A DNA stretch of 64,000 nucleotides from Eledone cirrhosa (Eukaryota): the NCBI GenBank assembly GCA_964016885.1, contig OZ024740.1:188542001-188606000 (forward strand), written 5' to 3'. The notes beneath the pieces are model-generated. The model saw nothing but the letters and a program-made list of their open reading frames with translations. It did not search any database and was not told where the DNA came from. The translations under genes were made by a program, and so were the position numbers. Each line of letters opens with the position of its first letter. Positions within the stretch are counted from its first letter, which is position 1. Positions 12,638 to 53,413 of this stretch are shown here, piece after piece.

Positions 12638-12809
12638 ATTCCTTTCAACTAAACTGTATCCATTCAAATCTTTCTATTTTTCTCCGGATTACTTTTGGAA
12701 CTACAACTGGAACCGTCGAGCAAACTCTACGTGAGCTGATAATCTACTGTGTGTAATATTTATATTACAACACAACGGAAAATACTGTATATATATATAT
12801 ATATATATA

Positions 12810-13767
12810 TTCCATTACCTGGGTGACAAAATCAGCAGTGGGGGAGGGTGCTCTGAAAGTACAGTAGCTAGAGTCAGAACTGGATGGAAAAAGTTCAGAG
12901 AGCTTATACCACTATTAGCCGCTAAAGGGTTCTCCCCAAAAATGAAAGGCAGGCTCTATGATGCCTGCATACGAACAGCAATGTTGCATGGCAGTGAGAC
13001 TTGGGCATTGTGTGCAGATGATATACGCAGACTGGAGAGGAACAAAGTTTGCATGCTCCGCTGGATGTGTAATAGTAATATACGCGAACGGCAAAGCATA
13101 AACGAACTAAGGGAAAAATTAGAAATAAGAGGGATCAGATGTTGTTTACTCGAGAGAAGTCTACGTTGGTATGGTCACGTGATGCGCATGAAAGAGGACA
13201 GCTGTATAAAAAAGTGCAGGGCAATAAAGATAGACGGTAGCCACGGAGTAGGCAGACTCAGAAAAACCTGGGACGACCTGATAAACTCCGACCTCACACA
13301 CTTACACCTCTCCAAGACAATGTCACTGGACCGAGATCTTTGGCGGCGCTCAGTAATAGAGAAGACCCGCCTTACCTAAATACAAAGTAAAACATACTAC
13401 AGTCAGTAGGCATCTCTAACAAAATACACCCCCGTCCCACCACCCCAACCCCATCCACACCGCCCCTTTCAGTGTAAAGTTATGTTGGTGCCACAACATC
13501 CAGGCCGAAACAAATGAGATGGTGTAGGTGTCACGACAAAAAAACACACAGTCCATGCTGTAATGTGGCCATGTAGGCAACACGGTAAAAACCTCCCAGT
13601 CCCACACTGTAAATGTGGTTGGTGTTAGGAAGGGCATCCAGCTGTAGAGAACCCGCCAGACAGTCCTATGTGAGCAAGACAACCACTCTTGCCTCAAGCG
13701 GGAAAACTCCCGTCAAAACCCATGCAAGCGTTGGACATGGACGTTAAATGATTATGATGATGATGAT
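12810..13767 (+). mobile_element. RTE LINE family A, 5'-truncated
   Basis: [54 protein letters not shown](13379); 3' UTR; ggacgttaaatg(GAT)n. Confidence 0.95.
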
Positions 13768-15719: not shown

Positions 15720-16050
15720 TCATCATTCATTTTACGTCCGCTTTTCCCTGCTTGCAAGGGTTGGATGGGAACTGATTCTGGCTTGATTACTACAGCTGAA
15801 TGCACTTCCTAACACCAACTTCATTTACAGTGAGTGCTGGGTGCTTTTTTGCCGTGGCACCTCCACGACCACTTTGCATTGGAATGATATGGAACCCAGT
15901 CCCTATCATCTCATTTTTACAGCTGAGTAAACTGGAGCAATGTGAAATAAAGTGTCTTGCTCAAGGAAACAACACATCACCTGGTCTGAGAATTGAACTC
16001 ACAACCTTTCGATTGCAAGGCCAATGCTCTAACCACTAAGCCATGTGCCT
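15720..16050 (-). mobile_element. Chimeric tRNA-SINE (copy 2)
   Basis: Same head, body and tail as 8290-8632. Confidence 0.9.
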
Positions 16051-16114
16051 TTTCAAAAGTAGAGTTGAAATGGAGGCTCTGTGAAAAAACCACAGACCCG
16101 CCATCTCAACTCTA

Positions 16115-16150
16115 CTTTTGAAAAGCAGAAGAACTGTGAAACCGGTAAAG
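16115..16150 (+). ncRNA. Minimal hammerhead motif with U3-A8 core variant
   Basis: ctt-TTGAAAA-gcag aagaa ctgt-GAAA-ccgg-TA-aag, AATAAA at 16157; preceded by an inverted copy of its upstream ~34 bp (16050-16083). Confidence 0.65.
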
Positions 16151-16317
16151 GAACCAAATAAATATATATATATTTTTTAAAAATAAAACTCCAGTTGCAT
16201 TTTTGATTTCATCTTTTTTTCTCTTTATATATATATACATATATGTATATGTACATATATATGTATGTATACATATTTATATATATATATATATGTATAC
16301 ATATATATGTATGTATA

Positions 16318-23976: not shown

Positions 23977-25824
23977 TGTGTCCGGGATGATGCCGGTGTA
24001 CTTAGTGTCACGAATGACCAGAAAAAGGAGGCTTGGAAATGTCATTATGAGAGACTGATGAATGTGGAGAACGAATGGGAGAGAGAGAAATTACCCTTGG
24101 TAGATCCGACAGAGGGACCAGCTATTGAGATTGATGAATATAGGGTCCAAGAGGCGATTAGGGAAATGAAAAATGGTAAGGCGGCCAGACCATCGGGAAT
24201 AGTTGCTGAGATGCTGAAGGCATCAGGGGACGTAGGCACTAAACTGGTTGCACGCATCATCAATCAGGCTATATATGGTGGTGTCATACCCAAAGACTGG
24301 TGCAGCAGTATTCTCATAAATTACTACAAAGGTAAAGGGGATGCTTTGGAGAGGAGCAATTATAGGGGTATAAAACTGATAGATCAGATTATGAAAGTGG
24401 CAGAAAGGATTTTAGCACAACTAATTAGAGAAAGGGTCAAACTAGATGAGATGCAGTTTGGTTTTGTGCCTGGGAAGAGTACAACAGATGCCCTCTTCTT
24501 GGTGAGACAAATGCAATAGAGATTTTTAGAGAAGAATAAGCCACTATACTTAGCCTTTGTGACCTTGAGAAGGCCTTTGATAGGGTACCCCGATCTGTCA
24601 TCTGGTGGTCCCTAAGGTAGCTAGGTGTTGAGGAATGGCTTGTGAGGACAGTGCAAACTTTGTACAGAGGTACTCTCAGTAAAGTCAGGGTAGGAATGGA
24701 GTTTAGTGAGGAATTCCAGATACAAGTAGGTGTACATCAGGGTTTGGTCCTCAGCCCGCTCTTGTTCATTATAGTCCTCCAAGCCATAACAGAGGAGTTT
24801 AAGACTGGCTGTCCATGGGAAATTCTCTATGCTGACGATCTGGCTCTTATAGCAGAATCAGTAGAGGAGCTAGAGAATAAATTCCGGCTATGGAAACAGC
24901 AGTTGGAAGCAAGAGGACTGAGAGTAAATCTAGCTAAGACAAAAGTGTTGATGAGTAGAAAAGAGGACAAAACCCTGATTCCGTCAGGGAAATGGCCATG
25001 TTCGATATGCAGAAAAGGAACTGGCATAAATTCTATAAAATGCACACAATGCAGGTCCTGGGTACACAAGAGATGTAGAGGCATAGCAGGCAAACTAACA
25101 GGTAGGGAGAAATATGTATGCAGTAGATGTACAGGGAAATTAGACAGTAGAAGTCGCATTGATAGACACATTTTTCAAATGCGAGAGGGCGCTATAGACG
25201 TGGTGGATAGCTTCTGGTACCTAGGAGATCAGATTAGCATGGGAGGAGGGTGTTCCGAGGCCATAGTATCTAGAATAAGGACGGGTTGGAAGAAGTTTAG
25301 GGAGCTGCTTCCTCTGTTGACGAAGAAGGGTTTCTCCCTGTATACGAAAGGCCGGTTGTATGATGCCTGTGTGAGGAGCGCGATGCTGCATGGTAGTGAG
25401 ACATGGGCAGCAACCGCAGAGGATATGCGACGGCTGGAGAAAAATGAGGCAAGCATGCTCCGTTGGATGTGCAGTGTAAATGTGCGTGAACGACCCAGCA
25501 TAAATGTGTTGAGAGAGAAACTGTGTCTGAGAAGGATAGAATGTAGTGTACGGGAGAGGAGACTGAGGTGGTATGGACATGTGATGCGCATGGAGGATGA
25601 CCGATGGGTGAAGAAGTGCCAGGAAATGCCAGTTGAAGGAAGACGTGGTAGAGGTAGACCACGAAAAACATGGGCGGAGGTGGTGAGAACAGACCTCAGT
25701 TCATTGAAGCTCACGGCGGAGATGACGAGGGACCGTGACGAGTGGAGAGATGCTGTGCTGAATAAGACCCGTCCCTCCCTTGCAAGCAGGGAAAAGCGGA
25801 CGTAAAATGATGATGATGATGATG
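23977..25824 (+). mobile_element. RTE LINE family B, 5'-truncated RT region
   Basis: [44 protein letters not shown] (24828-39), PHD-like finger, FWYLG, LRWYGHV; stops at 24517 and 24618 and a frameshift ~24565; ORF stop abuts the (GAT)n tail. Confidence 0.97.
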
Positions 25825-29535: not shown

Positions 29536-31790
29536 ATCATCATCATCATCATCACCGTTTTACGTCCATTCTTCCATGCTACCATGGGTTAGACGGGTTG
29601 TTCTGTTGTGGGCAGTGTCTGGTCGGCTGACCATGCCTTGCTCATACAGGAACTGATTTTGACTTGGTTTCTACAGCTGGATGCCCTGCCTAACACCAAC
29701 CTCATTTACAGTGAGTGCTGGGTGCTTTTTTCCATTGCGCCTACACGTCCACTTTACAGTGTGGGCCGGGTGCTTTTTTGCCGTGGCACCTCCACGACCA
29801 CTTTGCAGTGGGAGGGTGTGGAGGCATATTGTCTATATGCTTCAGCTTGTACCCATGGGAGGTCGGGTACTCTTTGTTACTGCGTAATGCCAGAGGTCAC
29901 GGTCGTGTGTCATCGCCTTTGAGAGGTGCAACTGGGTAAGGTCGGCCCCTATCACCTCATCCCAGGTCTTCTTGGGTCTCCCCACTCCGCGGCTACCATA
30001 GACTCTTAGTGCTCTGCACCTTTTTATGTAGCTGTCATCCTTCATACGCATCACATGTCTATATCAACGCATCCGTCTCTCCTGCACACAGATTTGATTC
30101 CTCTGATGCTCAGTCTCTCTGCAAAATCATTTATGCTTTGCCGTTCGCGTATATTACTATTACACATCCATCGGAGCATGCAGGCTTCGTTTCTTTCTAA
30201 TCTACGTAAGTCTACAACCTTCAGCGCCCAGGTCTCACTACCATGTAACATTGCGGTTCGGATACATGCATCATACAGTCTGCCTTTCATTTTGAGGGAG
30301 AAGCCTTTTGCAGCTAGCAGTGGCAGTAGTTCCCTGAACTTCTTCCATCCCGTTCTTACTCTAGTTATTGTACTTTCTGAACACCGACCTCCGCTGCTAA
30401 TTCGGTCATCCAGTTATCAGAAGTTGTCTACTGTTTCTACAGAGCCCTCCCAGAGATTGGTGGTACTTGTTTCCTGTGGCTGTTTGCTGCTTGCTGTCCC
30501 AGCGCAGCTGCTACATGTGAGGACTACATTCTTAATTAAGCTTCCTGAGATCCTGCTACATCTCTTGTGTACCCATTGTTTGCATTTGGGGCAGAGAATG
30601 GAGTTCCTACCTACACCTTTCCTACATACTGGGCAAGGCCATTTCCCTGAGGGGATCTGGGTTCTGTTTTCTTGCCTACTTACAAGGACCTTAGTCTTTG
30701 TCATGTTGACTTTGAGACCCTTTCTTTCTAGTCCCTGCTTCCAAGTTTGGAATTTCTTCTCTAGTTCTACCATAGATTCAGCTATAAGTGCGAGGTCATC
30801 TGCATACAGGAGTTCCCATGGGCATCCGGTCTTAAACTCCTCCGTTATTGCCTGCAGGACTATGATGAACAGGAGAGGGCTAAGAACAGAGACCTGGTGG
30901 ACACCAACCTGTATGCTAAATTCCTCGCTATACTCATTGCTAATCCTAACTTTGCTGACTGCTCCCCTATACATGGCTTGTACAGCTTTCACAAGCCATT
31001 CATCTACTCCTAGTTTTCTAAGAGCCCACCAGATTATAGCACATGGAACTCTGTCAAAGGCTTTCTCGAGATCGATGAATTCCAGGTAGAGTGGCTTACT
31101 TTTAGCTAGGTACTTTTCTTGTAAATGCCTCACAAGGAAGAGGGCAATCAGTGCTACCTCTTCCTGGTACAAACCCAAATTGCATCTCATCTAGTTTCAC
31201 CCAGTCCCTAATCAACTGTGCTATAATTCTTTCTGTTACTTTCATGACCTGGTCCATCAGCTTTATACCTCTATAGTTTCCTCTATCTAGTGCATCACCT
31301 TTACCTTTGTAGCAGTTGACAATGATGCTACAGCACCAATCTTTTGGTATGACACCTTCTAGTATTACCTGGTTAACAATACGTGTGGTTATAATGTGAC
31401 CTACAGACCCATATGCCTTCAGCATCTCGGCAGCTATACCCGGTGGACCGGTTGCCTTCCCCATCATCATATCTTTGATTGCTTTACTTACTACGCTGCT
31501 GCTGACTTGTACTGCTGGCCGCTCTATAGGGTCTACTTGGGGTAGGGTCTCTTCTTCCCATGCATTCTTCTCATTTAGTAATCTATCATAATGGCTCTTC
31601 CATGCATCTTTCTTCTCAGCGCTTGTGAAGGCAAGCTCACCTTTATCATTCCAGATACACTTCTCTCCAATGATATCACAATTCTCTCTGACACACTGCC
31701 TCGCCATCTTGAACACCTCCTGTTTCTGGTCCTCACGTTGCAAAACATGCTTGAATTTCTGGTCCTCGCATTGCAAAATATGCTTGAATT
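29536..31790 (-). mobile_element. RTE LINE family C, long degenerate copy (RT pseudogene)
   Basis: ORFs 31102-31776, 30417-31190 (DLEKAFDRVP, YADD, PHD-like finger), 30051-30290, 29842-30054; frameshifts; UTR and tail. Confidence 0.97.
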
Positions 31791-53267: not shown

Positions 53268-53413
53268 TTCACTGCTTTACGATCGTTTCTAGGTGATAAT
53301 AGTACATCGTACGCATATTTCGTTATCGATCTATGTAGGGTTAGTAACAAAATATCAAATAAGGAATATATTTACCTACGTGTATATTATCGGCCGTTGT
53401 CAAAAGCAATGAA
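53268..53413 (-). ncRNA. Hammerhead motif, U3-A8 core, 107-nt stem II
   Basis: ttcattgctt-TTGACAA-[107 nt; gataata/tattatc, gtagg/cctac]-GAAA-cgatcg-TA-aagcagtgaa; 10-bp stem I. Confidence 0.72.

What the first reader, a model, noticed from the sequence alone, without database searches (positions are those of the whole stretch)
16050..16165. Tiny hammerhead with compensatory U3-A8 core
The core reads TTGAAAA instead of CTGANGA. Both C3 and G8, which form the Watson-Crick pair required for the active fold, are changed together to U-A. The same double change occurs in a different-looking element at 53397-53403 (TTGACAA). A paired change argues for selection rather than decay. Upstream lies a fold-back of ~34-bp arms whose right arm overlaps the core and could sequester it.
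Basis: partly seen in the sequence, partly recalled or inferred. Interest (0 to 1): 0.7.

Follow-up and report, generated by a model that had tools for sequence, protein, structure and literature searches.

The report
Penelope retroelement end with U3-A8 hammerhead
This is a short, folded-back end piece of a very abundant Penelope-type jumping gene whose small, likely self-cutting RNA motif carries a U-A core pair instead of the usual C-G throughout the family; that swap is already in print, and this particular copy is predicted to be folded shut.

Summary
At 16118-16150 lies a minimal type I hammerhead motif: TTGAAAA, 4-bp helix II, GAAA, palindrome ACCGGT, predicted cut after A16147. It is the 5'-truncated terminal repeat of a Neptune-type Penelope-like element with intact RT plus GIY-YIG copies. 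U3-A8 is fixed: 11,138 of 11,900 anchored copies, 44 C3-A8, 16 U3-G8, none C3-G8. The second element (53397-53403, minus strand) is a Hydra-type family, also U3-A8, so the swap likely arose twice; eight other motif types seen have C3-G8. The fold-back is the usual inverted terminal repeat, an insertion by-product, not a regulator. U3-A8 is published for these elements (PMC4209133) and other hammerheads (PMC3088659), and this scan found it before in other genomes. Fixation alone does not show selection; helix I covariation between subfamilies supports it, while an older subfamily and the second family spread with mispaired helix II bases, and copies do not pile up sharply at the cut site. Cleavage is untested. 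New member of a known kind; interest low.

The parts
16049..16083 (-). Inverted (fold-back) arm: 35-nt antisense copy of the terminal repeat, cut short at the head of the neighbouring SINE
   Evidence: 32 of 35 complementary to 16091-16125; other family copies carry the same arm extended to the (TA)n target
16080..16229 (+). 5'-truncated terminal repeat (pLTR) of a Neptune-type Penelope-like element, ending at the shorter of the family's two 3' ends, in (TA)n
   Evidence: blastn 92.6% over 175 nt to the 3' repeat of ORF-bearing L178, 90% over 151 nt to L170; ends mapped
16115..16117 (+). Helix I, 5' strand (3 bp only in this subfamily; A-G mismatch at the fourth position)
16118..16124 (+). Hammerhead 5' core U3 U4 G5 A6 A7 A8 A9
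   Evidence: family counts
16125..16137 (+). Helix II, 4 bp with 5-nt loop; first pair G-U here, G-C in most copies
16138..16147 (+). G12 A13 A14, self-complementary helix III (ACCGGT, dimer-type) and A17; predicted cut between 16147 and 16148
   Evidence: dimer fold evaluated
16148..16150 (+). Helix I, 3' strand
15986..16048 (-). tRNA-like head of an adjacent SINE-type repeat, abutting the inverted arm (context, not part of the element)
   Evidence: Rfam tRNA match 15986-16043, 28.1 bits, under the 29-bit threshold; repeat families
53268..53413 (-). Second U3-A8 hammerhead motif (core 53403-53397, 10-bp helix I, 107-nt helix II region with a C-A mismatch at its base, palindrome ACGATCGT), 3' repeat of a Hydra-type Penelope-like element
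   Evidence: 88% over 1143 nt to ORF-bearing L138

Best explanation
The motif is the minimal hammerhead of a Penelope-like retroelement's terminal repeat, with U3-A8 fixed across the family; in full-length source elements two motifs would likely pair through their palindromes and cut the RNA after A17, while this truncated copy is predicted to be folded shut. Shown: anatomy, family counts, link to intact RT plus GIY-YIG elements with one motif at each end of a 4.68-kb unit, two 3' ends 63 nt apart, (TA)n targets. Inferred: reverse transcription started just downstream of the motif, stopped after about 150 nt, and the inverted arm was added during insertion; the arm was later or concurrently cut short at the SINE. 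Inferred: U3-A8 replaced C3-G8 once in the ancestor of this lineage and once, separately, in the Hydra-type family, and is kept because the 3-8 pair is needed for at least weak, probably protein-assisted cleavage. Untested: any cleavage.
For: Counts 11,900 / 11,138 / 44 / 16 / 0. Pattern for a C3-G8 core with this helix III: 4 hits, control 1, none a family. Full-length copies: motif, ORF1 409 aa, ORF2 775 aa, motif (L170, L173); Pfam GIY-YIG above cut-off, RVT_1 at E 4.9e-06 but under its cut-off; GxKF, DKG and CX4CxxC motifs. Eight motif types with C3-G8 and two with U3-A8, none with a mismatched family state (Fisher p 0.022; tallied by eye, families not independent). Helix I covaries: A-U (older subfamily), A-G (window type, 4,461 copies), C-G (6,206 copies, including most intact ORFs). 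In the C-G subfamily the double-hammerhead fold lies 1.4 kcal/mol from the dimer minimum (-21.1 vs -22.5). Literature: U3-A8 in about 1,300 Schistosoma Penelope motifs; natural covariation, active in vitro; inverted truncated repeats and tails are standard.
Against: No activity data. An older subfamily (157 exact matches) has U-U and U-C mismatches in helix II in 19 of 30 loci, and the second family has C-A at the base of helix II, yet both spread. Copies lacking sequence upstream of the cut: 231 of 15,864 against 179 of 15,635 at a control site; true junctions 19 of 30 against 5 of 15 loci, p 0.11, and the TA before the cut matches the target. In one mutational scan only the G-C swap rescued the 3-8 pair (PMC9901934). 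Ribozyme mutants did not affect insertion in vitro in an Anolis element (PMC11167929). Both changes are G/C to A/T transitions in an AT-rich genome.
Confidence: 0.8

Rival explanations
1. Same element, but the hammerhead is a relic: U3 and A8 were fixed by AT-biased drift in source elements, and the motif persists only as part of the repeat that the element's protein copies.
For: Mispaired helix II in the older subfamily and in the second family; 4,461 copies with only a 3-bp helix I; no sharp cut-site pile-up; cleavage not needed in vitro; U-A swap weak in one scan.
Against: All other core positions are kept; no family with a mismatched 3-8 state among ten types; helix I restored by a second change and helix II better paired in the less diverged subfamilies.
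Confidence: 0.15
2. The fold-back is a selected switch that keeps the ribozyme off in this transcript.
For: The arm is predicted to pair the whole 5' core (-48.2 kcal/mol).
Against: Inversion points vary from 55 to 1,425 nt among copies; direct-repeat full-length units have no such arm before the 3' motif; the structure is the standard insertion by-product; no conservation of this locus was shown.
Confidence: 0.03
3. Chance resemblance to a hammerhead in AT-rich repeat DNA.
For: Helix I is 3 bp; a looser descriptor gave 9 hits in the window; no Rfam hammerhead match listed.
Against: 0 of 200 shuffles with the strict descriptor; the motif sits where Penelope hammerheads sit, at both ends of intact elements.
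Confidence: 0.02

Closest known systems
Minimal type I hammerheads of metazoan Penelope-like elements, U3-A8 variant of Schistosoma mansoni Cercyon (Cervera and de la Pena 2014, PMC4209133; parts 1-2 of 4 read)
   Same: In the terminal repeats, sense to the ORF; palindromic helix III; short helix I; U3-A8 core; mostly solo copies; pairs on opposite strands 100-700 bp apart.
   Different: Helix II is 4 bp, not 7-8; no extra nucleotide between A9 and G10.1; about ten times more copies; different host and subfamily series.
Natural U3-A8 hammerheads (Perreault et al. 2011, PMC3088659; passages)
   Same: Same covariation of the 3-8 pair.
   Different: The passage names no Penelope link; the present motif cannot form helix III alone.
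Neptune-clade endonuclease-bearing Penelope-like elements (Craig et al. 2021, PMC8557442; passages)
   Same: C-terminal GIY-YIG, CX2-5CxxC linker, DKG and GxKF motifs, (TA)n targets, inverted truncated 5' repeat, optional tail.
   Different: Tail is 63 nt against 30-40; separate overlapping ORF1; no tree was built, so Neptune versus Nematis rests on motifs.
Hydra-clade Penelope-like elements (PMC8557442; passages), for the second element
   Same: RW-type N-terminal motif (RWR here, RWK in the paper), DKT, CxCX5C linker, C-terminal endonuclease.
   Different: U3-A8 core, 107-nt helix II region and an embedded CTGAYGA.
PAc Poseidon element of Anolis (Frangieh et al. 2024, PMC11167929; parts 1-2 of 4 read)
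   Same: Two 3' ends (tail), AT-rich targets, hammerhead in the repeat.
   Different: C3-G8 core; ORF starts inside the ribozyme, whereas here ORF1 starts about 160 nt downstream.

Membership tests
Penelope minimal hammerhead | Core N3 UGA N N8 A ... GAAA ... UH with a 3-8 Watson-Crick pair | tested here: met
   U3-A8, all other core positions canonical; fixed in 11,138 of 11,900
Penelope minimal hammerhead | Palindromic positions 15-16 (dimer helix III) | tested here: met
   ACCGGT
Penelope minimal hammerhead | Helix II closed by G10.1-C11.1 | tested here: inconclusive
   G-C in most copies; G-U in the window copy; U-U in the older subfamily
Penelope minimal hammerhead | Helix I of 4-5 bp | tested here: inconclusive
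   4 bp in 6,206 copies, 3 bp in the window type (4,461), 7 bp in the older subfamily
Penelope minimal hammerhead | Extra nucleotide between A9 and 10.1 (described as usual, not obligatory) | tested here: not met
   absent
Penelope minimal hammerhead | Location in both terminal repeats of an RT plus GIY-YIG element | tested here: met
   L170 2068/6747, L173 688/5377
Penelope minimal hammerhead | Self-cleavage as dimer | not testable with these tools
   only folding energies and an inconclusive junction count
Endonuclease-bearing Penelope-like element (Neptune type) | RT followed by C-terminal GIY-YIG | tested here: met
Endonuclease-bearing Penelope-like element (Neptune type) | CX2-5CxxC linker, DKG, GxKF | tested here: met
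Endonuclease-bearing Penelope-like element (Neptune type) | Direct and inverted terminal repeats, optional 3' tail, (TA)n targets | tested here: met
Endonuclease-bearing Penelope-like element (Neptune type) | RT tree places it in the Neptune clade | not tested
   no reference set fetched
Non-LTR retrozyme | Non-coding tandem monomers of a few hundred bases | tested here: not met
   copies are truncated or inverted ends of a coding 4.68-kb unit

The most novel reading that the evidence does not exclude
U3-A8 is a working, selected core that is locked in by the neighbouring helix: natural C3 copies of the young subfamily are predicted to flip into a perfect competing hairpin, so the family cannot return to C3-G8 one step at a time; and the Hydra-type family reached U3-A8 by another route, taking up a new core ten bases upstream while its old CTGAYGA became part of helix II. 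The subfamily series would then be a ready natural test set for whether Penelope elements must cut their own RNA.
Probability: 0.15. Interest if true: 0.5.

Novelty: new member of a known kind. Interest (0 to 1): 0.24.

Why it matters
The variant itself is known. The value is as material: a young family with intact coding copies, more than 11,000 motif copies, natural single-mismatch copies and three subfamilies that differ in helix I and II strength. These allow a direct test of an open question stated in the papers read, whether Penelope hammerheads must cleave for the element to spread. Descriptors that demand CTGANGA would miss both families here.

Tried and rejected
Rfam scan: only simple-repeat and hairpin matches among those listed. 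A C3-G8 sister family with the same helix III: none found (pattern limited to helix II spans of 11-16 nt). Alternative partner strands for the inner CTGAYGA of the second family, as in a permuted hammerhead: none in two repeats of L138 with four patterns. My first guess that the second family was a Naiad was dropped: its endonuclease is C-terminal. Expression: no RNA holder listed; four runs laid were contigs and cannot show ends. Lunse et al. 2017 (dimer cleavage of Penelope hammerheads) is not held; known only as cited in PMC6765202, and it or unread supplements (none were opened) may already list these families. Searches found no paper describing this family; (frameshift) listed only virus and recoding papers. 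Age order of subfamilies rests on a small difference (mean mismatch 0.060, 0.076, 0.096 in 24, 6 and 15 copies) and is tentative. Sequence look-up in earlier findings gave nothing.

Full report
Observation. The window is a 64-kb piece of a 3.0-Gb, AT-rich animal genome, likely a cephalopod (my recall of its repeats, and the wording of earlier notes). The sequence at 16115-16150 has the parts of a minimal type I hammerhead: CTT, TTGAAAA, a 4-bp helix II, GAAA, the palindrome ACCGGT, A17 and AAG. A strict descriptor finds it once in the window and in 0 of 200 shuffles; a looser one gave 9 window hits. The fold-back arms are 35 nt, 32 complementary. The second site is on the minus strand.

Family. 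A 27-base anchor that leaves out the 5' core occurs exactly 11,900 times in the genome. Of these 11,138 are preceded by TTGANAA, 44 by C3-A8 (all 44 listed), 16 by U3-G8 (all 16 listed) and none by C3-G8; the other 702 differ elsewhere or are truncated and were not sorted. A wider pattern for a C3-G8 core with this helix III gave 4 hits against 1 in the control, none forming a family. U3-A8 is thus the state of the source elements, not decay of this copy. The single mismatches, at 0.4% and 0.1%, look like mutation after insertion.

Parent element. Sequence upstream of the motif is collinear, over about 1 kb, with the end of a GIY-YIG reading frame. A protein search returned 134 scored matches, many with a 775-residue open frame. 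Of ten fetched regions, L170 and L173 show motif, ORF1 (409 aa), overlapping ORF2 (775 aa), 3' region and motif, 4,679 and 4,689 nt from motif to motif. ORF2 has GIY-YIG above the Pfam cut-off and a reverse transcriptase match under it, with GxKF, DKG and a CX4CxxC linker, the Neptune/Nematis marks in PMC8557442 (passages). Copies end at two places 63 nt apart and sit in (TA)n, the tail described in PMC11167929. The window copy matches the 3' repeat of L178 at 92.6% over 175 nt and ends at the shorter end.

Fold-back. 20 of 30 loci have an outward-facing partner within 1.5 kb (both arms of a pair count as loci), at spacings of 55 to 1,425 nt. Inverted, truncated 5' repeats with palindromic junctions are standard for these elements (PMC8557442, PMC3846280; passages). 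Here the arm is cut short at a SINE head. If transcribed, it is predicted to pair the 5' core completely. Even without it the window copy prefers a competing hairpin, and its double-hammerhead fold is 7 kcal/mol above the dimer minimum. This copy is likely inactive; the arm is a by-product.

Second element. It is the 3' repeat of another family whose ORF pieces in L138 carry RMRWRA, DKT and CxCX5C, Hydra-clade marks. U3-A8 stands in 97 of the first 100 listed of 156 matches, none C3-G8. Helix I is 10 bp, but helix II starts with a C-A mismatch, and a canonical CTGAYGA sits three bases after the core in 29 of 37 copies (lost in the window copy). It pairs inside helix II and no partner strands were found for it.

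Selection or drift. For: a scan of 734,304 bases (178 overlapping, query-enriched loci plus the window) gave eight motif types with C3-G8 and two with U3-A8; mismatched cores were single copies of these types or the copies I had fetched for being mismatched (p 0.022; by-eye tally, not tree-corrected). The two U3-A8 families belong to different clades by motif, so two origins are likely. Helix I position 4 runs A-U, A-G, C-G across three subfamilies, and in the C-G subfamily the predicted minimum already contains helices I and II. Natural C3 copies switch the minimum to a competing hairpin (-8.8 against -7.5 kcal/mol). Against: the older subfamily has two mismatches in helix II in 19 of 30 loci; 4,461 copies have a 3-bp helix I; the junction count at the cut site is inconclusive (231 of 15,864 against 179 of 15,635; 19 of 30 against 5 of 15 true junctions, p 0.11); PMC9901934 (passages) found only the G-C swap rescuing; PMC11167929 found cleavage protein-assisted and not needed for insertion in vitro.

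Mechanism. Most likely the element's RNA holds the motif at both ends of a unit; two motifs would pair through ACCGGU and cut after A17, weakly and perhaps with help from the element's protein, to trim transcripts (model from PMC4209133 and PMC6765202, passages). Reverse transcription from one of two sites downstream, insertion at (TA)n, early stop and inversion would give copies like this one. Only the anatomy and counts are shown here.

Novelty. U3-A8 in Penelope hammerheads was reported in 2014 with about 1,300 hits in Schistosoma, and as a natural variant in 2011. Earlier notes of this scan report the same in other genomes; these are unchecked AI notes and are not counted as support. Verdict: new member of a known kind, interest 0.24.

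Noticed in passing
L170:3371-3458 (also L172, L173, L175): ORF1 overlaps ORF2 in the -1 frame, with U UUU UUA in the ORF1 frame; 24 of 29 matches in the loci keep it. Candidate programmed -1 frameshift; earlier notes already report it in this genome.
   Followed up: partly
window 53387-53393 (minus) and L031-L060: Second family carries a canonical CTGAYGA three bases after its U3-A8 core, varying T/C at the position that is free in a core; possible relic of an older core.
   Followed up: partly
window 28246-28205 (minus): A third minimal hammerhead motif, with canonical C3-G8 core and palindrome ACTAGT, of a family also seen in other loci.
   Followed up: no
window 28487-28465 (minus): Truncated piece with the second family's helix III palindrome but a different 3' flank.
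   Followed up: no
L118/L119, L130: Both arms of an inverted pair share the same rare core change, while about ten other pairs have it in one arm only: arms are copied from one template or converted.
   Followed up: no
L228-L257: Older subfamily with 7-bp helix I and mispaired helix II; helix strength seems traded between I and II across subfamilies.
   Followed up: partly
window 12735-13376, 24621-25802, 30054-31788: Several fragments of non-LTR (RTE-like by recall) reverse transcriptase frames.
   Followed up: no
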